From sequence record PV806339.1: 60,026 nt of DNA; one strand, given 5' to 3'. The position numbers and the translations under genes are program-made. Origin of the DNA: a phage. Below, piece after piece: positions 335 through 54,610 of the stretch. The notes beneath the pieces are model-generated. The model made no database searches, was not told where the DNA came from, and was given only the letters and a program-made list of their open reading frames with translations. Each line of letters starts with the position of its first letter. Within the stretch, counting starts at the first letter, position 1.

Positions 335-1810
335 ATGCACGACTATCAGGACGAAGGCGTCCAGTTCATCAAAGACCATCCGTACTGCGGCATGTTCGTA
401 GACCTCGGCTTGGGTAAGACTGTCATGACCGGGACGGCCATGCTAGACCTGATCGCGGACGGCGAAATCAACAAAGTCCTCGTCGTCGCGCCGAAGCGAG
501 TGGCCCGTACCGGGTGGCCGACGGAATTCGACGAGTGGGGGCATCTGTGCTTCTACAAGATGTCGATTATCGCCGGAAACGCCAAAGAGCGCGCAGCGGC
601 CGCGAGTAAGGACTGTCACTTCTACACGATCAGCGTGGATAACATCGCGTGGCTATGTGAGCACTTCAAGACGAAATGGCCGTTCGACGCCGTGGTGCTG
701 GACGAGTCGAGCATGTTCAAATCCCACACCTCGCAGCGCTTCAAACTGCTGCGCCGGGTGCGGAAGTACATCAAACGGATCGTCGAGTTGACGGCCACGC
801 CTGCGGCCGAAGGGTACATGGGTATCTTCTCGCAAATTTACCTGCTGGACGAAGGCGAGCGCTTTGGCTCCACCATCGGCGGTTATCAGGAAAACTACTT
901 CACGCAGAACCGCTACAACTTCAAATGGAAACTTCGCCCCGGTGCGGAAGACGAGATTATTCGGAAGATTTCTGATATATGTTTAGTCATGAAAGCGGAA
1001 GACTACCTTGACATGCACGAACCGAATTTCGTTCCTGTCCCGGTCGAGTTAGACGGGGAGACGGCCGAGCGGTACCGCATGATGGAGGAAGAGAGCCTCG
1101 TCGAGATTATGCCGGACGATTTCGATGAACATCTGGATGACCCAATCGTGATCGAAGCGGAGCAGGCCGCGTCTTTGCAGTCGAAGCTATTGCAGATGTG
1201 CTCAGGCTTCATCTACGACACGAAAATCGTTGGCATAACGCAAGACGACAAGGTCATTAAGCAGAAGGACACGTACAGGCTGCACGACCTGAAATTCGAT
1301 GCACTGGAAGAACTACTGGAAACCACGCTGGCCGATAAAAACGTGCTGATCGCCTATCACTTCAAGCCGACCCTCGAACGACTGAAAGAGCGGTTTAAAG
1401 ATCTGGTGGTCATGGATGATGACGGTAAGTGCATCAAGAAGTGGAACGCCGGAAAGATTCGACTGCTGGCCGCGCACCCTCAGTCAGCGGGACACGGTTT
1501 AAACCTCCAGCATGGCGGCCACGTCATCGTCTACATCGACAATCCGTGGTCACTCGAACGCTTCCTGCAATTCAATGGCCGATTGCACCGTCAGGGGCAG
1601 AAGTACCCGGTTACGATCTACCAGTTCAAAGCCATGCTGCGAACACCGAACGGGCTTCTGGCCGAGACGGCGGACGACGTAGTCATACAGGCGCTGGTCG
1701 AAAAGGAAGACGTGCAGGACGCGTTCTTCGAACTGCTCGAACGTATCAAAGGGCGCATCAAACGCCGCAAGAAATCGAAAAATAAAGGGGTATGGGATGA
1801 CGAAGAGTAA
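335..1810 (+). CDS. SNF2-family DNA helicase (alternative start at 251)
   Basis: Q-motif region HDYQDEGVQF, P-loop GLGKT, DESS (DExx) box, C-terminal helicase motif GLNLQHGG; ends ...VWDDEE. Confidence 0.75.
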   Translation: MHDYQDEGVQFIKDHPYCGMFVDLGLGKTVMTGTAMLDLIADGEINKVLVVAPKRVARTGWPTEFDEWGHLCFYKMSIIAGNAKERAAAASKDCHFYTISVDNIAWLCEHFKTKWPFDAVVLDESSMFKSHTSQRFKLLRRVRKYIKRIVELTATPAAEGYMGIFSQIYLLDEGERFGSTIGGYQENYFTQNRYNFKWKLRPGAEDEIIRKISDICLVMKAEDYLDMHEPNFVPVPVELDGETAERYRMMEEESLVEIMPDDFDEHLDDPIVIEAEQAASLQSKLLQMCSGFIYDTKIVGITQDDKVIKQKDTYRLHDLKFDALEELLETTLADKNVLIAYHFKPTLERLKERFKDLVVMDDDGKCIKKWNAGKIRLLAAHPQSAGHGLNLQHGGHVIVYIDNPWSLERFLQFNGRLHRQGQKYPVTIYQFKAMLRTPNGLLAETADDVVIQALVEKEDVQDAFFELLERIKGRIKRRKKSKNKGVWDDEE

Positions 1811-2366
1811 TGCGCCACTGGCAACCCGGAATCGCCGCTCTAATGCGCCGGACGCCGATACCGAAGCGATGATCTTTCAGGGCTGCAACATCACGCAACT
1901 GGCGAAGCTGTTTCGCATGGAGCGCCGGGACATCACGCCGAAAATCATGGATGTCCCGCCTGTCGGCGAGCGTGGCGGGTACCCGATCTACGCGGTTCAC
2001 GAAGTGGCCCCGTACCTCGTTAAGCCGCTGTACGATGTCGAGACGTACCTGCGCCGCATGAATTTCAAGGATCTGCCGAAGGAGTTGTCGAAAGAGTTTT
2101 GGGCCGGGCAGCGTGCAAAGCAGGACTTCGACATCAAAGCGGGAAACCTGTGGGAAACCGAGAAGGTGATCGAGCACTTCGGCGAGGCGGTGAAGGTGCT
2201 GCGCATGTCGATGTTGCTCATTCCCGACACGCTGGCGCGTCAGGCCGGACTCAGCGAGCCGCAACGTCAGGTCATCACGTCATCCATTGACGCCATGCTG
2301 AACGACCTGTCGAGCGCGCTGATCGATAAGTTCAACGGCGACGAGGTGGATGACGATGAAGTTTAA
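1797..2366 (+). CDS. putative terminase small subunit (189 aa)
   Basis: Position directly upstream of and overlapping TerL; N-terminal HTH-like segment ITQLAKLF; C-terminus ...DEVDDDEV; call by synteny only. Confidence 0.45.
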   Translation: MTKSNAPLATRNRRSNAPDADTEAMIFQGCNITQLAKLFRMERRDITPKIMDVPPVGERGGYPIYAVHEVAPYLVKPLYDVETYLRRMNFKDLPKELSKEFWAGQRAKQDFDIKAGNLWETEKVIEHFGEAVKVLRMSMLLIPDTLARQAGLSEPQRQVITSSIDAMLNDLSSALIDKFNGDEVDDDEV

Positions 2367-4431
2367 GAGCATCGGGCAGATTATCAGTTCGGTGGCCGAG
2401 CAGTTACGGCCGCCAATGCGCATGACGGTGGCCGACGCGGCCGCCAAGTATCGCTACGTCAACCAACCCGGCGCATACGTCGGGGATTGGCTTAACTCGA
2501 CGACGCCGTACATGGTCGAGCCGATGAACATGATGAACAGCCGGGCGTACGACAAGATGGCCTTTGTCGGCCCGGCGCAGTCCGGTAAAACCGATGCGCT
2601 GATCCTGAATAGCATTGTCTATTCGGTGAAAGTTGACCCGATGGATCTGATGGTCTACTGCCCGACGTCAACGGCCGCGCGCGACTTCTCGATGCGACGT
2701 GTAGACCGTCTTCACCGCCATAGCCCGAAGGTGGGCGAAATGCTGATGAAGAACCGCGACGCCGACAACAAATTCGACAAACACTACGTCACAGGCATCA
2801 TCCTGACGTTGAGTTATCCGTCAGTAACCGAACTGGCCGGGCGTCCCGTTGGCCGCATCATCATCACCGACTACGACCGTATTGACGACGACATCGGTGG
2901 CGACGGTAACGCCTTCGACCTCGCATCAAAACGTACGACGACCTTCGGGTCGTTTGCCATGTGTGCAGCCGAGTCATCACCATCGCGCCCGATTAAAGAC
3001 CCAAGCTGGATTAAGCGCACGCCCCACGAAGCCCCGCCGTGTGACGGGATTGTCGGCCTGTACAACCGAGGCGACCGCCGCCGCTGGAAATGGCCGTGTC
3101 CGCATTGCGACCAGTATTTCGAAGGTACCTTCCAGCTTTTGAAGTGGAACACGAAAGACGCCGATGGCAACCCTCTAACCAACCTCGAAAAGTCGGAGAC
3201 AGTGCGCATGGCCTGTCCACACTGCGGCTGCGAAATAGACCCGGTTGATAAGTATGAAATGAACCTGTGGGGGATGTGGGTGCCGGAAGGCTGTCATGTC
3301 AACGAGTTGGGCCAACTGGCCGGGGTACCGATGCGCTCGTCGTTCGCGTCCTTCTGGCTTCGCGGAACGGCGGCCGCATTCATCACATGGCAGAAACTGG
3401 TTCTGAACTACCTCGATGCGATGGATGACTACGAGCGTACGATGTCCGAAGAGTCCTTGAAGAAATTCTGGAACAACGACATGGGCGAACCGTACGTGCC
3501 GAAGGCGATCGAGACGGTACGCGTTCCGGAAGCGCTGAAAGCCCGCGCCGAGAAGTGGCCGGAACAGACGGTGCCGAAGAATGTGCGGTTCTTGGCGGCC
3601 ACGGTGGACGTGCAGAAGCATAGCTTTGAAGTGTCGGTGCATGGCGTGGCCCCCGGCTACCCATTCGACACCTACCTGATCGACCGCTTCAACATCACGA
3701 AATCGCGCCGACTCGATGACGATGGCGACCCGAAAATCCTGCACCCGGGCGCGTACCTCGAAGATTGGGATCTCATTGAAACCGAAGTGATGAACAAGAC
3801 GTATCCGCTGTCCGATAATTCGGGCCGTTCGCTGCCGATCAAGATGACCGCGTGCGACTCCGGTGGTGAAGCCGGGGTAACGGGCAACGCGTACGAATTC
3901 TTCCGGAAACTGCGGAAGGAAGGGAAAACCGGGCGCTTCTGTCTGGTGAAGGGCGACCCGAAAGCGAACAACCCGCGCACCCGTGTAGCGCTACCGGACT
4001 CCAACCAGAAAGACAAGAAAGCCATCGCACGCGGCGACGTTCCGGTGCTGATGATTAACTCGAACGTGATGAAAGACAGCCTGAACGGCCGACTGGACGT
4101 CGTGGAGCCGGGCAAAGGCATGTACCACATCCCGGACTGGATGGGCGACGCGGTATTCGCCGAACTGTGTACGGAGACGCGTGACGAGAAAGGCTGGCAC
4201 AACCCATCCCACGCCCGAAACGAAACGTGGGACTTGGCATATTATTTATTGGGAATTTGCGTCAGTGGCCGCGTGCTCGGGATTGAGCAGATAGATTGGG
4301 ATAACCCGCCATCATGGGCGGCCGAGTGGGACGATAACAGCATGGTTATTTTACCGCAGAGCGATGAACCTATTGATGCACCGAAAGATACCGAATACAG
4401 TTTCGAGAAACTCGCAATGGCGTTAGCATAG
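2350..4431 (+). CDS. terminase large subunit, lambda GpA-like (693 aa)
   Basis: Walker A VGPAQSGKT; zinc-finger-like CPHCDQYF...CPHCGCEID; size and position match GpA-family terminases. Confidence 0.85.
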   Translation: MTMKFKSIGQIISSVAEQLRPPMRMTVADAAAKYRYVNQPGAYVGDWLNSTTPYMVEPMNMMNSRAYDKMAFVGPAQSGKTDALILNSIVYSVKVDPMDLMVYCPTSTAARDFSMRRVDRLHRHSPKVGEMLMKNRDADNKFDKHYVTGIILTLSYPSVTELAGRPVGRIIITDYDRIDDDIGGDGNAFDLASKRTTTFGSFAMCAAESSPSRPIKDPSWIKRTPHEAPPCDGIVGLYNRGDRRRWKWPCPHCDQYFEGTFQLLKWNTKDADGNPLTNLEKSETVRMACPHCGCEIDPVDKYEMNLWGMWVPEGCHVNELGQLAGVPMRSSFASFWLRGTAAAFITWQKLVLNYLDAMDDYERTMSEESLKKFWNNDMGEPYVPKAIETVRVPEALKARAEKWPEQTVPKNVRFLAATVDVQKHSFEVSVHGVAPGYPFDTYLIDRFNITKSRRLDDDGDPKILHPGAYLEDWDLIETEVMNKTYPLSDNSGRSLPIKMTACDSGGEAGVTGNAYEFFRKLRKEGKTGRFCLVKGDPKANNPRTRVALPDSNQKDKKAIARGDVPVLMINSNVMKDSLNGRLDVVEPGKGMYHIPDWMGDAVFAELCTETRDEKGWHNPSHARNETWDLAYYLLGICVSGRVLGIEQIDWDNPPSWAAEWDDNSMVILPQSDEPIDAPKDTEYSFEKLAMALA

Positions 4432-45493: not shown

Positions 45494-45522
45494 TTGACGC
45501 ACGCCGCGTATATCATTTACAT
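45494..45522 (+). promoter_or_regulatory. sigma70-like promoter with conserved extended spacer (+ strand)
   Basis: TTGACG (45494-45499), spacer CACGCCGCGTATATCAT (17), -10 TTACAT/TACATT; followed by CCCTTCGGGGG hairpin. Confidence 0.5.
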
Positions 45523-45587
45523 TTAAATTCCCTTCGGGGGACGGGGCAAAAAGTCCCGGCGATAAACTAACTTTATGAGGTGTCACG

Positions 45588-48127: not shown

Positions 48128-48157
48128 TTGACGCACGCCGCGTATATCATCTATTAT
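48128..48157 (+). promoter_or_regulatory. sigma70-like promoter with conserved extended spacer (+ strand)
   Basis: TTGACG (48128-48133), spacer CACGCCGCGTATATCAT (17), -10 CTATTA/TATTAT; followed by CCCTTCGGGGG hairpin. Confidence 0.55.
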
Positions 48158-48218
48158 TAAATTCCCTTCGGGGGCCGGGGGCAATGGGGCCGACGGTTAT
48201 CAAAACAGGTACATAAAA

Positions 48219-50048: not shown

Positions 50049-50300
50049 ATGAATAAAGGCCAATACCGCGCCGCGCGTCGCCTGATACGTGATAACGGGA
50101 TCTATGCGTTGCGATGGCTGGACGATGACACCGCGCCGATTATGGACGTGTTAGCAAGCCAGCCGGATGACCAGTTAGAGACAAGGGCGGCGATCGTGGC
50201 GTACAGCGCCCGCGCCGGGCTTGCGTGCAATGTGCGTAAAACGGCGTCACTTGACCTTTTAGCGCGGTACCATGACCGCAAGGCGGCCGCGAATGGATAA
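50049..50300 (+). CDS. hypothetical early protein (83 aa)
   Basis: ORF. Confidence 0.4.
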   Translation: MNKGQYRAARRLIRDNGIYALRWLDDDTAPIMDVLASQPDDQLETRAAIVAYSARAGLACNVRKTASLDLLARYHDRKAAANG

Positions 50301-50544
50301 GGCGCAACGCTTAACGGCCGCACGTATGGCGGCGGATCGGTATGCCGGGATCGCAAGGGCAAAAGGTTTTAAGCGTCATATTGATGGCGTGACGTTTACC
50401 CGGGCCGATGCGGATCTAACGTGGGATGACCGGGCGCGCGCTTTCCGTGTGACGCTGTACAAAATGGACGGGGCCGCGCGTCTTGCCGTTGCCACTGTAC
50501 GCGCTAACGCGATGCTTAACGTGCTGTTAAAAGCGTTTATCTAA
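50293..50544 (+). CDS. hypothetical early protein (about 83 aa; start refined from ORF 50272)
   Basis: ATG at 50293 overlapping previous stop. Confidence 0.4.
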   Translation: MDKAQRLTAARMAADRYAGIARAKGFKRHIDGVTFTRADADLTWDDRARAFRVTLYKMDGAARLAVATVRANAMLNVLLKAFI

Positions 50545-50613
50545 AACCGAATTTTCGGGGAACGCCGCACGATCCCTTTTAACCTGTTTTGACATATTCC
50601 CCATGTATCAAAG

Positions 50614-50637
50614 GCCGCCTATCCGGGCGGCTTTTTT
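50614..50637 (+). terminator. Rho-independent terminator ending the + strand early cluster
   Basis: Stem GCCGCC / GGCGGC with loop tatccg followed by TTTTTT. Confidence 0.7.
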
Positions 50638-50648
50638 ATTGCCTTTCT

Positions 50649-50846
50649 GATATACGCGGCGTGCGTTGGTGTGCCGTGTATCGGGCCTATGGTGCGCCGC
50701 TGTAGTTGATATACGCGGCGTGCGTATGGCGGCCCGTCCTGCTTTCTTCCTTCCTGATATACACGACGTGCATCAATGCGGCCTTATGTGCGCGCTATGC
50801 CGTATGGCGGCCCGCTATGGTGCTGCATGATATACGCGGCGTGCGT
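50649..50846. repeat. four copies of the promoter-core motif in reverse orientation (GATATACGCGGCGTGCGT)
   Basis: Copies at 50649-50666, 50708-50725, 50755-50775 (variant), 50829-50846; reverse complement of the spacer core of the 45494 and 48128 promoters; no matching -10 on the - strand. Confidence 0.8.
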
Positions 50847-51307
50847 TGGTGTGCGGCTGTATATGGCTATCTATTCCCCTTTCTATGGTATCCCCTGCTA
50901 TATGGTGTGACGGGGCGTTATTGTATGCCCTTATTTCGGCCGCTATGGGGGCTAGGCGGGGCGATCGTGGTGTAAGGTATGCCTACCTATTACGATCTAT
51001 CTTGCGAGGCGTGGCGGGCGGCTGAGAAAGAATTACGGTCACGATTTCAAAAAGGTACTTACCCGCCAGTCGGTCGGCCCGGGGGTGCGCAGAGCCGCTT
51101 TCTCGGAAAATGGGCCGGATCTGCCATAGCCCCGCTTTGCGAAATCAATAACTTAGCCGAAAAACCGAATTTCTCCCGTAGGGAGTCTCCAAATCGCGGT
51201 GGTGACGGGGGTGCGGGCGGAACGGCGCTTTAGCCCCGCAATCGGTTGATTGTATTACTGTTTTACCCGGTGGGCGGGTGCTGACCAAGTCCACGGCAGC
51301 AGTATCA

Positions 51308-51590
51308 GGTTACAAGTTACAGACGGGTTACAAGTTTTTCGCTTTGTAACCTCTAACTATCTCACTGTTTTTACTGCGTTTTTCTCCTATAAAGTTACAA
51401 GTTACAAATAAAGTATAGTAATAGTCCAGAAATAGAGAAAACGAGGTAAAAATGTGAATTTTATATAGGGGGGAATTTTACCCGGGCGCTAAACCACTTC
51501 GGTTTGTAACCTGAATACCCGGATCGCTGAGAGCCGCGCCACCACTGGCCCGAACATGGTTACAAACGGCGAAAATGGTATGTAACCTTT
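51308..51590. repeat. iteron array of GTTACAA / TTGTAAC heptamers (at least 8 copies, both orientations)
   Basis: GGTTACAAG at 51308 and 51325, TTGTAACC at 51344 and 51504, tandem GTTACAAGTTACAA at 51394-51407, GGTTACAAAC at 51558, TGTAACC at 51580; AT-rich surroundings. Confidence 0.8.
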
Positions 51591-51608
51591 TGCCCGTTTT
51601 GGCCGTTT

Positions 51609-51662
51609 TCTTGCGTTTCAATAACAAATTTGTTATACGTCTTGCCCCGAATCCTGCTATAA
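51609..51662 (+). promoter_or_regulatory. candidate promoter/operator region upstream of XRE regulator
   Basis: Palindrome ACAAATTTGT, TATAAT hexamer, repeated TTTGTTATA. Confidence 0.35.
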
Positions 51663-51696
51663 TTTATTTGTTATAAACAGCAAAAATAGGTCAAAA

Positions 51697-51984
51697 ATGC
51701 AGCACGATGAATGCCGTGAAACGTTGATGGATTTCAAACGACAATTACAGACACATTTGAAGGCGATTTTACGTCGTCAGGGGGTCACACAGAGCGCGCT
51801 TGCGACGATGATCGGCGTACACCAGTCAAGATTAAGTTTCATGCTTAACAGTGACGCAGACAGAGTTTCGATCGATAAACTCATTGAAGCGATAGTGAAA
51901 CTGGACGGCGTGTTTATGGTGAAAATCGGAGATCAAACAGACATAAATCGAGTGCGGTACAAGGAGTGCGAAGACAACGTTTGA
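51697..51984 (+). CDS. XRE-family helix-turn-helix transcriptional regulator (95 aa)
   Basis: HTH GVTQSALATMIGVHQSRLSFML typical of Cro/CI-type regulators. Confidence 0.65.
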   Translation: MQHDECRETLMDFKRQLQTHLKAILRRQGVTQSALATMIGVHQSRLSFMLNSDADRVSIDKLIEAIVKLDGVFMVKIGDQTDINRVRYKECEDNV

Positions 51985-51995
51985 CAGACAAAAAT

Positions 51996-52020
51996 AAGGC
52001 CGGATTTCCCGGCCTTTTTA
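51996..52020. terminator. bidirectional Rho-independent terminator between convergent genes
   Basis: Stem AAGGCCGG / CCGGCCTT with loop atttc; A-run upstream and T-run downstream. Confidence 0.7.
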
Positions 52021-52024
52021 TCGA

Positions 52025-54610
52025 CTAAACTTCGTCTTCATCGTCAAACGGGTCTGGCTTTTTGCCGACCAGTTTTTCGACTTCTGCGTCATGCCGTTTT
52101 AACGTAGTCTGCACCCACGACGAGTTAAGTTTCCCCGCGTCGTCGAATGCCCCTTTGACCCGCTTCCTGACATAAACGCGGCCAGATTCGCCGCCAAATT
52201 TGACCACGCCGCCCGGCTTGAAGCCCAATTCCATAAGCATGTTTTTCAGGCGGTTCGTCTTCGGCATTTCCACGTCTGTCATTTCGAGGAATGCGTTTTT
52301 CAGGGACGGCACGAAGATGACGTCGCGGTGTACGCCCGGCGTCGTTCCGTCACGAAGCATTTGTGCGATTGCGCCTTCCACGCCATCGTCAGACGCGTCG
52401 GCCATGACCGCGAATGCTTCGGTGTCCTGCGGTGCGTGTCCTTTGGCATCGAAATCCTTTCCGATCTCCCAATCGAGGAACCACTTTTTGATAGCAGGTG
52501 CGTGGTTTTCGATTGCCCGGTACACGTTTTTGAAGAAGCGCGCGCGTTCAGTCTTCGACCCGTAAACCCGCTCCATGTCCAGATGATTTTCTGCCTGCGT
52601 GGACACCACCAGATAACGACGCTGGTTTTCATCGAGTGGCAATGCGTTGAAGTGGTTGGTGAACATCATTTTGCTGCTGGTGTTCACGACTTCCTTCGGC
52701 TTGCGGCCCTTTGGCTCAATCTGGAAGCGATCGTTTGTGATGAATTCCTTCTGGCGTTCCACCGCGCTGTACCGATCGCCTTTGTCGTAGATCTCTTCCA
52801 CGATTTTCAGGATGTGGCCCTCGGCCCAATCGCTGAAACGGCCATTCATCACGGTGTTTGACACATAGCCCACGTTCGACGCGCCGAGCATCCGCGACAT
52901 GATGATGCCGAGCGTCGTTTTACCAGAACCATGCGCACCACGGATCAGAAGCGAGTAGTTGATGCGTTTCGTTGGGTGCTGAATAACCCACGCCATCCAG
53001 TCCAGAACATAGCGGCGTTCCTTCTCGTTCGGGAAAAGCACGATGAAGAAGTCTTTGATGATCTCCAGCGCCTTTTTGTCGTACGGAGAAAGGTCAGTCG
53101 CGGCCTCCGGAATGGATTCAGGGTCAAAAGAGTTCAGCCACGTACGCCCACGGTCGTCAATAAAGAATTCCGGCCCGATCACCCCCTCTTTCGGCTTCCA
53201 CACAGATTCCGGCATGTCACCGTGCATCGCCGGGTAGTACATCGCGTCCCAAACGATAGGAACCGGGCGGACTACCGACGCATAGTGGACAGGCTTGAAG
53301 GCTTCTTCCTCAAACACGCATTTTTTCGCAAAAGCGACGTCGAAAGCGCCTTTTGTGATGTAATCGCCCGTGGTTTTTTCGATAAAACTGTCATTTGCCT
53401 TCGAGAAAACGAAGTTTTTCAGCCACTGCGGAGTCTCTTTTGACCCGTAATCGAAGCCCAAAAGCTCCCTTTTGTCACCAGCAGTGAGGCGGAAGTTGTT
53501 GATCCTGCGGTATGCTTCGGCCGCAATCTGGACGATGGCCTTGCGGGTAAGCCCGAAAATCTGCGCTTTTTTGAATGATTCGGCCCACGCATTCCAGTCA
53601 TTCGCCTCGGTACACTCGGCGAAAGCCTCGCGGTACTCGATGGCGCGTTCTTCCTGCTCGGCTTTCTCGATGTCCTGCACTTCTTTGATGATGGTGCCGA
53701 GCGTGATCAGTCGAGTCGAGTTGTGCGCGAAGCCCTTATCCCACTTGTATTCGAAATCACCTTCGTCGAAGTTGTGTGCCTGCATGGCCCATTCGCGGGC
53801 AATGGCCTTCGCCTCGTCCTGATCGCGGCAGGAAATTTGCAGCGCGGCCAGTACGGTGATGTAGTTCTCGTAATCTTCCGGGTTCGGGTATTTCAGGACG
53901 ATGTCGCGCAGTTCATCGTACGTGCCGTCCCACTTTTTGACGTCAGACAGCGCGGCCCAATCGTCATCGTCTGCCGAACCGATAGACTCATAACCGTTCA
54001 TTGGCCGTTTGACCATTGTCCAGCCCAAGTCCTTCGCGTATCGGTCGAATTCGGCGGCGATCTCGCGAGCGGTATCGAGGCTGATCTCTTCGAGGTCAAG
54101 GTCGGCGGCGTTGTTCAGCGGATTCTCGCCATCAATCCAGTAATAGTCGCGCTTGGTGTCCGGGTGGATACCGTACGCAACGAACTGCTGGCCGTCGGCG
54201 AGGATTTCAACTGCATGGCGCTGGCCGAAGTCGTCTTCCCACACGCCGGATTTCACTTTGGCGAACGGGTTTTCGGTTCGGTACAGGTAGAGTTTCTTCG
54301 GCTCCCGGCCGATACGACATGGCGCTGCACCGACGTTCTCGGCGATCCAGTCTGCCATGTGCGCCACGGCGTCTTCATCGTAAACGTCGATGTCAACCGC
54401 CGGGGTGTATTTGGTCAGAATCCCGATGCCGTTATTCGTATAGCGTTTCGCCCAACGCTGGATCTGCTCCTTATCATTGATTGTTCGTTCCCAATCTTCA
54501 CCGATAGGGCGTTTGCCCGCACCCTTCTTATCGGCGTCCGGGGCGTAGATAGGTACGATGGTGTACCCATTCCCCCAAAGCGTTTCGCCGTACTCTTGCC
54601 AGTAGTTCAT
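52025..54610 (-). CDS. bifunctional DNA primase-polymerase / SF3 (D5/P4-type) helicase (861 aa), ends ...DDEDEV
   Basis: N-terminal prim-pol-like region (GIGILTKYTPAVDIDVYD); C-terminal Walker A LIRGAHGSGKTTLG. Confidence 0.7.
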   Translation of the reverse strand: MNYWQEYGETLWGNGYTIVPIYAPDADKKGAGKRPIGEDWERTINDKEQIQRWAKRYTNNGIGILTKYTPAVDIDVYDEDAVAHMADWIAENVGAAPCRIGREPKKLYLYRTENPFAKVKSGVWEDDFGQRHAVEILADGQQFVAYGIHPDTKRDYYWIDGENPLNNAADLDLEEISLDTAREIAAEFDRYAKDLGWTMVKRPMNGYESIGSADDDDWAALSDVKKWDGTYDELRDIVLKYPNPEDYENYITVLAALQISCRDQDEAKAIAREWAMQAHNFDEGDFEYKWDKGFAHNSTRLITLGTIIKEVQDIEKAEQEERAIEYREAFAECTEANDWNAWAESFKKAQIFGLTRKAIVQIAAEAYRRINNFRLTAGDKRELLGFDYGSKETPQWLKNFVFSKANDSFIEKTTGDYITKGAFDVAFAKKCVFEEEAFKPVHYASVVRPVPIVWDAMYYPAMHGDMPESVWKPKEGVIGPEFFIDDRGRTWLNSFDPESIPEAATDLSPYDKKALEIIKDFFIVLFPNEKERRYVLDWMAWVIQHPTKRINYSLLIRGAHGSGKTTLGIIMSRMLGASNVGYVSNTVMNGRFSDWAEGHILKIVEEIYDKGDRYSAVERQKEFITNDRFQIEPKGRKPKEVVNTSSKMMFTNHFNALPLDENQRRYLVVSTQAENHLDMERVYGSKTERARFFKNVYRAIENHAPAIKKWFLDWEIGKDFDAKGHAPQDTEAFAVMADASDDGVEGAIAQMLRDGTTPGVHRDVIFVPSLKNAFLEMTDVEMPKTNRLKNMLMELGFKPGGVVKFGGESGRVYVRKRVKGAFDDAGKLNSSWVQTTLKRHDAEVEKLVGKKPDPFDDEDEV

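What the first reader, a model, noticed from the sequence alone, without database searches (positions are those of the whole stretch)
51308..51662. GTTACAA iteron array and palindromes in a 1.1-kb non-coding region: candidate origin or operator, possibly also packaging site
At least eight GTTACAA/TTGTAAC heptamers in both orientations within ~280 bp, AT-rich sequence, the palindrome ACAAATTTGT and repeated TTTGTTATA sit directly upstream of an XRE-family regulator and adjacent to the convergent primase-helicase gene. Iterons next to a primase gene are a typical origin arrangement. The terminase genes at 1797-4431 are tightly overlapped with upstream genes, leaving no intergenic room for a lambda-style cos site there, so this large non-coding region is also a candidate for cos/pac.
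Basis: partly seen in the sequence, partly recalled or inferred. Interest (0 to 1): 0.55.

Follow-up and report, generated by a model that had tools for sequence, protein, structure and literature searches.

The report
Replication origin iterons of a Chi-like phage
The GTTACAA repeats are most likely the replication origin of a Chi-like Salmonella phage, read by the tail domain of the phage's own primase-helicase; this is an ordinary kind of origin not previously marked in this phage family, and related phages change repeat and protein together in a predictable way.

Summary
The window is a Chi-like Salmonella phage (Chivirus). The repeats are real. There are seven exact GTTACAA plus two one-mismatch copies at 51309-51586, against 0.11 expected. 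They flank the least stable 100 bp of the whole 60 kb.

In relatives from several genera the same nine positions and orientations are kept, but the heptamer itself changes: GTTACAA, GTAACAA, GTAACAG or ATTACAA. It is not the XRE protein gp1, whose gene is missing or of a different type in phages that keep the array. It is not the terminase, which is 100% identical in two phages with different heptamers.

The C-terminal winged-helix domain of the primase-helicase gp2 does track the heptamer. One wing residue (K804 versus C) separates G-first from A-first repeats. Predictions from the protein alone held on 7 of 7 newly fetched contigs.

This is the layout of an origin served by a self-loading helicase, as in SaPI Rep/PriRep and P4 alpha.

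The ATAAC-N6-GTTAT palindromes are probably gp1's own operators. The true cos site (GGTGCGCAGAGC) lies at 51084-51095, in the same gap but outside the flagged interval.

Everything here is comparative; nothing is biochemical.

The parts
51309..51407 (.). Left iteron cluster, six sites: S1 51309-51315 (+), S2 51316-51322 (+, GTTACAG), S3 51327-51333 (+), S4 51344-51350 (-), S5 51394-51400 (+), S6 51401-51407 (+).
   Evidence: The same positions and orientations relative to the cos end are found in Chi, Siskin, Stilesk, Seifer and others, with type switches in other phages. Heptamer columns are 83-89% identical against 35-51% for spacer columns.
51408..51503 (.). AT-rich centre of the array, the candidate DNA-unwinding element. 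It ends in the conserved box TATATAGGGGGG (51462-51473).
   Evidence: 51368-51468 is the least stable 100-bp duplex of the whole window, 5.4 sd from the mean. A+T is 66-74%. The corresponding stretch is visibly AT-rich in every relative printed.
51504..51586 (.). Right iteron cluster, three sites: S7 51504-51510 (-), S8 51559-51565 (+), S9 51580-51586 (-, GTTACAT).
   Evidence: These sites are kept in Siskin and BP12C, where the surrounding sequence and the gp1 gene differ. S5 and S6 face S7 across the AT-rich centre.
52166..52381 (-). Winged-helix part of the gp2 primase-helicase C-terminal domain (about aa 744-815), the proposed iteron reader. The K804 codon is at 52199-52201.
52025..54610 (-). 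gp2, a fused primase-polymerase and SF3-type helicase with a C-terminal DNA-binding domain (861 aa), the proposed initiator.
   Evidence: Pfam: Prim-Pol 13-168, PriCT_2 243-309, DUF5906 557-665, VapE-like. Stilesk and PibeRecoleta gp2 are identical over aa 1 to about 750 and about 75% identical after that.
51621..51675 (+). Probable gp1 (XRE) operators and promoter. Perfect palindrome ATAACAAATTTGTTAT at 51621-51636; second imperfect copy ATAATTTATTTGTTAT at 51659-51674; extended -10 TGcTATAAT at 51655-51663.
   Evidence: ATAAC-N6-GTTAT is found only in phages with this gp1 type (window, Chi, FSL SP-030). It is absent with other gp1 types and in gp1-less phages. The promoter was read from the sequence; the consensus scan, which needs a -35, found none.
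51697..51984 (+). gp1, an XRE/HTH_37-family regulator (95 aa). It is a variable cassette between the origin and the 3' end of gp2.
   Evidence: Pfam HTH_37 1.5e-10, HTH_3. The gene is replaced by other HTH types or absent in relatives.
51084..51095 (+). cosN: the 12-nt 5' cohesive end GGTGCGCAGAGC, which is the left end of the mature genome.
   Evidence: Ends determined experimentally for Chi (PMC4342425). Single exact match in the window. Records with an annotated cos overhang start exactly here.
51096..51300 (.). Conserved cos-proximal segment, the better cosB candidate. TAGCCCCGC at 51127-51135 and 51231-51239; IHF-consensus sites at 51143-51155 (+) and 51239-51251 (-).
   Evidence: Two of the four WATCAANNNNTTR matches in 60 kb lie here. 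The blocks are conserved across genera that share the cos overhang. The segment is 96-100% identical between Stilesk and PibeRecoleta up to nt ~250, except 90% in one 50-nt block.
51996..52016 (.). Bidirectional terminator hairpin between the convergent gp1 and gp2 genes.
   Evidence: z -4.5 and -4.3 on the two strands. Annotated as a terminator in Siskin and Seifer.

Best explanation
The nine GTTACAA-type heptamers are iterons of the phage's replication origin.

Shown:
- The window is a Chi-like phage.
- The array starts 226 bp from the left cohesive end. It has six sites, then an AT-rich stretch of about 100 bp, then three sites. The sites nearest the AT-rich centre face each other.
- Related phages keep this layout but switch the heptamer sequence at all sites together.
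- The switch tracks the last ~110-120 residues of the primase-helicase gp2. That region is predicted to fold as a winged helix.

Inferred:
- After the genome circularises through cos, gp2 binds the iterons on both flanks through its C-terminal winged helix. Wing residue K804 would read the first G.
- gp2 assembles as an SF3 helicase ring or rings and melts the AT-rich centre.
- It primes with its own N-terminal Prim-Pol domain and hands over to the phage DNA polymerase. This is how SaPI Rep/PriRep and P4 alpha work.
- The ATAAC-N6-GTTAT palindromes next to the array are a separate element: operators through which the XRE protein gp1 controls its own extended -10 promoter.
- cos is another separate element at 51084-51095.
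For: **Real, non-random array.** 7 exact copies against 0.11 expected, maximum 3 in 20,000 shuffles.

**Layout kept across genera.** Positions and orientations are conserved in Chivirus, Redjacvirus and Yonseivirus, while the spacers diverge. Heptamer columns are 83-89% identical against 35-51% for spacer columns.

**Concerted type switches.** GTTACAA, GTAACAA, GTAACAG, GT[TA]ACAGTT and ATTACAA occur at the same positions, including among Salmonella phages. This excludes a host factor.

**Stilesk versus PibeRecoleta.** gp2 is 100% identical up to about aa 750 and about 75% after that. gp3, TerS, TerL and the helicase are 100% identical. The divergent DNA block runs from the first iteron to the start of the C-terminal domain.

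**One separating column.** Over 21 unique C-terminal domains, exactly one of about 140 alignment columns separates G-first from A-first iterons. That column is residue 804: K or S with G, C with A. The C-type domains are not each other's nearest relatives, which points to at least two independent changes.

**Predictions from the protein alone.** Iteron types guessed from the Klebsiella-type wings listed were then found. On newly fetched contigs the stated predictions held 7 of 7.

**Unwinding element.** The centre of the array is the least stable 100 bp of the genome.

**Precedent.** SaPI origins have 6-12 short iterons immediately downstream of rep. They have an AT-rich centre and oppositely oriented iterons on each side, and are read by a C-terminal winged-helix domain; PriRep5 is a fused primase-helicase (PMC9371898). 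P4 alpha binds its origin repeats with a winged helix (PMC4234260).
Against: - There is no binding, replication or marker-frequency data. Everything is comparative.
- The C-terminal domain and the array are physically adjacent, so a single recombination can move both. Part of the covariation could be linkage. The convergent K-to-C changes and the blind predictions argue against linkage alone.
- Stilesk and PibeRecoleta also differ in right-arm genes of unknown function (80-95% identity). That pair alone does not exclude another reader.
- The rules for heptamer position 3 (V or L at residue 802; S, A or T at 809) have exceptions in Smarc5 and Enc34.
- In the window the gp1 gene sits between the array and gp2.
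- Sites S1 and S2 are degenerate in some GTTACAA phages.
Confidence: 0.72

Rival explanations
1. The heptamers are operators for the XRE regulator gp1, which would control early transcription from the left end.
For: They lie directly upstream of gp1. gp1 is a DNA-binding HTH protein.
Against: The array is intact in phages without any gp1 gene: Enc34, PibeRecoleta, BSPM4, ST-374 and a metagenomic contig. The same GTTACAA type occurs with at least four different gp1 types. A different motif, ATAAC-N6-GTTAT, is the one that follows the gp1 type and overlaps gp1's -10.
Confidence: 0.03
2. The heptamers are cosB-like binding sites for the small terminase subunit and serve packaging.
For: They lie on the genome side of cosN, as lambda cosB does. 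The large terminase is of the lambda gpA type.
Against: TerS and TerL are 100% identical in Stilesk and PibeRecoleta, yet most of the heptamers differ. Phages with the same cos overhang carry five heptamer types. The array starts 226 bp from the nick. The intervening conserved segment, with two IHF-consensus sites and two TAGCCCCGC blocks, is a better cosB candidate.
Confidence: 0.05
3. The heptamers are bound by gp2's C-terminal domain, or by another variable phage protein, for a purpose other than initiation. Examples are autoregulation, transcriptional control of the left end, or a replication-fork or partition-like function.
For: The covariation shows a specific phage-encoded reader, not what the binding achieves. 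Right-arm proteins also differ between Stilesk and PibeRecoleta.
Against: Iterons on both sides of the least stable DNA of the genome, next to the gene of an SF3 primase-helicase with a C-terminal winged helix, is the arrangement of known origins. No second iteron cluster or other candidate origin was seen in the window. No promoter-like hexamer pairs were found in the array.
Confidence: 0.15
4. The repeats are binding sites for a host protein (IHF, DnaA, a response regulator), or are a chance by-product of AT-rich sequence.
For: GTTACA resembles half-sites of some enterobacterial regulators (from memory, not tested). The region is AT-rich.
Against: No shuffle reached the observed count. Phages of the same host genus carry different heptamers at the same positions. 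There are no DnaA boxes in the gap. The IHF consensus matches lie outside the array.
Confidence: 0.02

Closest known systems
SaPI (Staphylococcus aureus pathogenicity island) replication module: Pri/Rep or fused PriRep5 plus ori
   Same: The initiator is an SF3-type self-loading helicase, fused to a primase in PriRep5, with a C-terminal winged-helix domain that reads short iterons. There are 6-12 iterons just beyond the 3' end of the initiator gene. The centre is AT-rich, with iterons on both sides pointing in opposite directions. Specificity differs between elements (PMC9371898).
   Different: No detectable sequence similarity was found with any solved structure. The element here is a virulent cos phage of enterobacteria, not a satellite. 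The iterons are 7-9 bp rather than 5-6. A variable HTH gene is often inserted between the origin and the initiator gene. The origin lies about 130 bp from the cos-proximal packaging signals. Binding and melting have been shown for SaPI but not here.
Satellite phage P4 alpha protein with ori/crr
   Same: One polypeptide carries a primase, an SF3 helicase and a C-terminal winged-helix origin-binding domain that binds short repeats at the origin (as summarised in PMC4234260).
pRN1 ORF904 and related phage Prim-Pol/SF3 replication proteins
   Same: The domain order is the same: Prim-Pol, SF3 helicase, winged helix. The origin lies just downstream of the replication gene (PMC4234260).
   Different: The pRN1 origin is a 100-nt stem-loop without iterons. 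Here the origin is a classical iteron and AT-rich arrangement.
Lambda cos (cosQ-cosN-cosB with IHF site I1)
   Same: A gpA-type large terminase, a 12-nt 5' cohesive end and IHF-consensus sites just inside the left end.
   Different: This applies to 51084-51300, not to the flagged heptamers. The terminase genes are about 10 kb away. The heptamers do not follow the terminase.

Membership tests
Iteron origin served by a self-loading SF3 helicase initiator with a C-terminal winged helix (SaPI Rep/PriRep, P4 alpha type) | Multiple short repeats (iterons), more than chance | tested here: met
   Nine sites. 7 exact copies against 0.11 expected; 0 of 20,000 shuffles reach that count.
Iteron origin served by a self-loading SF3 helicase initiator with a C-terminal winged helix (SaPI Rep/PriRep, P4 alpha type) | AT-rich centre with iterons on both sides in opposite orientation | tested here: met
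   Site orientations are + + + - + +, then the AT-rich centre, then - + -. The centre is the least stable 100 bp of 60 kb.
Iteron origin served by a self-loading SF3 helicase initiator with a C-terminal winged helix (SaPI Rep/PriRep, P4 alpha type) | Origin immediately beyond the 3' end of the initiator gene | tested here: met
   It is directly adjacent in Enc34, PibeRecoleta, BSPM4 and ST-374. In the window the two are separated only by the 288-bp gp1 cassette and a terminator.
Iteron origin served by a self-loading SF3 helicase initiator with a C-terminal winged helix (SaPI Rep/PriRep, P4 alpha type) | Initiator has an SF3-type helicase core and a C-terminal winged-helix domain | tested here: met
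Iteron origin served by a self-loading SF3 helicase initiator with a C-terminal winged helix (SaPI Rep/PriRep, P4 alpha type) | The initiator's C-terminal domain binds its own iterons specifically | not testable with these tools
   Indirect support only. A single separating column at residue 804. Module breakpoints at the array start and the C-terminal domain start. 7 of 7 blind predictions.
Iteron origin served by a self-loading SF3 helicase initiator with a C-terminal winged helix (SaPI Rep/PriRep, P4 alpha type) | Replication starts here and depends on the initiator | not testable with these tools
   No experimental data were found in the held literature.
Lambda-type cos site | Cohesive-end sequence at the site | tested here: met
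   GGTGCGCAGAGC at 51084-51095 equals the ends determined for Chi. This lies outside the flagged interval.
Lambda-type cos site | The repeats are terminase (small subunit) recognition sites | tested here: not met
   The heptamers differ between phages whose TerS and TerL are 100% identical.
XRE/Cro-type operator | The sites co-occur and co-vary with the regulator gene | tested here: not met
   Not met for GTTACAA: the array is present without gp1 and with at least four gp1 types. Met for the ATAAC-N6-GTTAT palindromes, which occur only with this gp1 type.
Host-initiator origin (DnaA boxes) | DnaA boxes TTWTNCACA in the region | tested here: not met
   Two matches in the window, both outside the gap.

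The most novel reading that the evidence does not exclude
Chi-like phages carry interchangeable 'replicon specificity cassettes', each made of the iteron array plus the last ~110-120 residues of gp2. These have diversified into at least five orthogonal types among otherwise near-identical virulent phages of the same hosts. A one-residue switch (K804 to C) retargets the initiator from G-first to A-first iterons. This would point to selection for private origins, for example to avoid competition in mixed infections or to escape satellites or defences that exploit the origin. It would also give a natural, readable winged-helix recognition code.
Probability: 0.35. Interest if true: 0.7.

Novelty: new member of a known kind. 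Interest (0 to 1): 0.5.

Why it matters
**An unmarked origin.** No record or paper I could reach marks an origin for Chi-like phages (Casjensviridae). If this reading is right, it gives the origin and its initiator domain for a whole family. The family includes phages used in Salmonella biocontrol and flagellum research.

**A natural specificity series.** The same scaffold carries five iteron types, and one wing residue tracks one base. This makes winged-helix-to-iteron recognition directly testable with a few point mutants.

**Better annotation.** The work separates three elements that sit side by side in one gap:
- cos and its probable cosB
- the origin
- the gp1 operator

Small ORFs called across this gap, including across cos itself, are likely spurious.

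Tried and rejected
- **GC skew.** Cumulative GC skew over the window follows transcription direction and gives no origin signal.
- **RNA families.** Rfam found only sub-threshold chance hits in 50300-52100.
- **Promoters.** The sigma-70 consensus scan found no promoter in the gap. gp1's extended -10 was read by eye.
- **Homologue search with the C-terminal domain alone.** It returned only 2 proteins. The full-length query was needed.
- **Collection scans.** Scans of IMG/VR and JGI metagenomes with gp2 gave few loci. Most diversity came from the GenBank phage collection and from exact-protein look-ups.
- **Other readers considered and rejected.** Host factors (IHF, DnaA, OmpR-like), gp3 and TerS were all rejected. 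The heptamer type changes among phages of one host, and between phages with identical gp3 and TerS.
- **Position 3 of the heptamer.** No single alignment column separates T from A at this position.

Full report
**What the window is.** The 1.15-kb gap at 50545-51696 and its flanks match Chi-like Salmonella phages. Identity is 97.8% to SeZq-1 and 92.9% to Chi. The gp2 protein is 100% identical to that of phage Utah. The gap lies between the last rightward gene (ending 50544, with a terminator hairpin at about 50610-50635) and an XRE/HTH_37 gene, gp1, at 51697-51984 (+). gp1 is convergent with an 861-aa Prim-Pol/PriCT_2/DUF5906 primase-helicase, gp2, at 52025-54610 (-).

**The observation.**
- GTTACAA occurs exactly seven times in 51309-51565 and three times elsewhere in 60 kb.
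- Two one-mismatch copies (51316 GTTACAG; 51580-51586 GTTACAT on the - strand) complete a set of nine.
- Shuffles that keep the local dinucleotide content give 0.11 copies on average and never more than 3 in 20,000 trials.

'At least eight' is true only if the near-copies are counted.

**cos is in the same gap but elsewhere.** Hendrix et al. determined Chi's ends as 12-nt 5' extensions, GGTGCGCAGAGC (PMC4342425). That sequence occurs once in the window, at 51084-51095. Many GenBank records with an annotated cos overhang start exactly there.

The next ~210 bp are conserved across genera. They carry two TAGCCCCGC blocks and two of the window's four matches to the IHF consensus WATCAANNNNTTR. This segment is the better cosB candidate. 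The heptamer array starts at +226 from the left end.

**The array is a conserved architecture with a changeable word.** Measured from the cos end, the sites lie at 226+, 233+, 244+, 262-, 311+, 318+, 422-, 476+ and 498-. The same positions and orientations recur in these phages:
- Chi
- Siskin and BP12C, which have a different gp1 module
- Seifer (Yonseivirus)
- Stilesk (Redjacvirus)
- Smarc6
- FSL SP-088 and FSL SP-124

Between divergent phages of the GTTACAA type, heptamer columns are 83-89% identical and the remaining array columns 35-51%.

Other relatives keep the layout but change the word at nearly all sites together:

| Heptamer | Phages |
|---|---|
| GTAACAA | Smarc5, PibeRecoleta, SAP012, one Klebsiella group |
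| GTAACAG | FSL SP-030 |
| GT[TA]ACAGTT | a metagenomic phage |
| ATTACAA | Enc34, BSPM4, ST-374, KPN N98 group |
| GTAAGRAG-like | PSTCR9 |

Several types occur among Salmonella phages.

**Who reads it.**
- Not gp1. Enc34, PibeRecoleta, BSPM4, ST-374 and the metagenomic phage have no gp1 gene yet keep the array. GTTACAA is shared by phages with at least four gp1 types.
- Not terminase and not gp3. Stilesk (GTTACAA) and PibeRecoleta (GTAACAA) have 100% identical TerS, TerL, gp3 and helicase.
- In that pair gp2 is identical through about residue 750 and then only about 75% identical. At the DNA level the divergent block runs from nt ~251, the first iteron, to nt ~1330, the start of the C-terminal domain.
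- That pair also differs in right-arm genes, so I looked for residue-level covariation.
- Over 21 unique C-terminal domains, exactly one alignment column separates iterons that start with G from those that start with A. It is residue 804: K (or S) with G, C with A.
- The C-type domains are not each other's closest relatives. BSPM4 is 90% identical to K-type Smarc6, and Enc34 is closest to the window at 74%. The change happened at least twice.
- Heptamer position 3 (T or A) goes mostly with V or L at residue 802 and with S or P versus A or T at 809. Smarc5 and Enc34 are exceptions.

**Prediction tests.** From wing sequences alone I guessed the iteron types of the Klebsiella-type phages and then found them.

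I then wrote down predictions for seven further proteins, fetched their contigs and checked:
- Three C804 proteins all have ATTACAA arrays.
- Three 'LLK..AGR' proteins all have GTAACAA.
- One 'VLK..PGR' protein has a G-first array (GTTACAA).

That is seven of seven.

**Why an origin.** The ~100 bp between sites S6 and S7 are AT-rich in every relative. In the window, 51368-51468 is the single least stable 100-bp duplex of all 60 kb (dG -112.7 against mean -150.3, sd 7.0).

Iterons on both flanks point toward an easily melted centre. They sit just beyond the 3' end of a gene for a fused primase and SF3 helicase with a C-terminal winged helix. This is the arrangement described for SaPI origins and Rep/PriRep5 (PMC9371898) and, more loosely, for P4 alpha (PMC4234260). 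There are no DnaA boxes in the gap and no second heptamer cluster in the window.

**Proposed mechanism (inferred).**
1. After cos joining, gp2 binds both iteron clusters through its winged helix.
2. It assembles as a ring or rings and melts the centre.
3. It primes with its own Prim-Pol domain.
4. The phage polymerase takes over.

**The palindromes are a different element.** ATAACAAATTTGTTAT (51621-51636) and its imperfect second copy (51659-51674) bracket an extended -10, TGcTATAAT, 34 nt upstream of the gp1 start codon. ATAAC-N6-GTTAT occurs only in phages with this gp1 type: the window, Chi, and the homologue in FSL SP-030, where it overlaps TATAAT. It is absent with other gp1 types and in gp1-less phages. 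This fits autoregulation by gp1. It has not been tested biochemically.

- The origin idea is supported and given a candidate initiator domain.
- The operator idea fails for the heptamers and holds for the palindromes.
- The cos idea is right about the gap but not about the interval.

**Novelty and limits.** No origin is annotated in the Chi-like records I read. None is described in the papers I could search. The mechanism is of a known kind, so I file this as a new member of that kind.

The attractive extra is the natural series of specificity switches with a one-residue correlate.

The limits are these:
- All evidence is comparative.
- The C-terminal domain and the array are adjacent, so linkage contributes to their co-inheritance.
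- The covariation test was not corrected for phylogeny.
- Function as an origin rests on architecture and analogy.

Noticed in passing
window 50648-50854; also 45494-45555 and 48128-48190: There are four direct copies of TGATATACGCGGCGTGCGT, 230-435 bp left of cosN. The same 15-mer occurs exactly, in the opposite orientation, inside two conserved promoter-like modules: TTGACGCACGCCGCGTATATCAT..TTAAATTCCCTTCGGGGG. These lie upstream of + strand genes at 45.5 and 48.1 kb. The motif may be a phage regulator site or a phage-specific promoter element. Its function is unknown.
   Followed up: partly
window 51096-51300: The conserved cos-proximal segment has two TAGCCCCGC blocks (51127-51135, 51231-51239). 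Each is next to a match to the IHF consensus (51143-51155 +, 51239-51251 -). This is probably the real cosB.
   Followed up: partly
window 51044-51060: ATTTCAAAAAGGTACTT, about 25-40 bp left of cosN, is conserved in a metagenomic relative and in Klebsiella phage KPN N98. It is a cosQ-like candidate.
   Followed up: no
window 51462-51473: The box TATATAGGGGGG lies at the right edge of the AT-rich centre. Variants (TATAGGG, TATAAGGGG, TATATAGAG) sit at the same place in relatives. It could be a priming site, a start site or a -10-like element.
   Followed up: no
window ~51440-51990 and the same slot in relatives: The slot between the origin and the 3' end of gp2 is a mosaic hot spot. It holds at least five different HTH gene types or nothing at all. 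Many relatives stop aligning with the window at about 51438.
   Followed up: partly
window 50979-51233: An 84-aa ORF runs straight across the cohesive-end site. One GenBank record (SAL_R1) annotates six small ORFs in this gap, while the curated Chi record annotates none. These ORFs are probably not genes.
   Followed up: no
L019 (PibeRecoleta) ~575-600: A copy of the TATACGCGGCGTGTG motif sits between the origin and the gp2 stop codon, where other phages carry gp1.
   Followed up: no
L050 (PSTCR9) 350-650; L051 (PM87) 1100-1350: More distant relatives keep repeats beyond the primase gene but with other words. PSTCR9 has GTAAGRAGT-type repeats. PM87 has a 17-bp CTGTACAAAWTTTATACAG repeat.
   Followed up: partly
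L046 (sal2) first iteron cluster: sal2 mixes GATTACAAG-type and GTTACAA-type sites in its first cluster while carrying a K804 wing. It may be a recombinant or transitional array.
   Followed up: no
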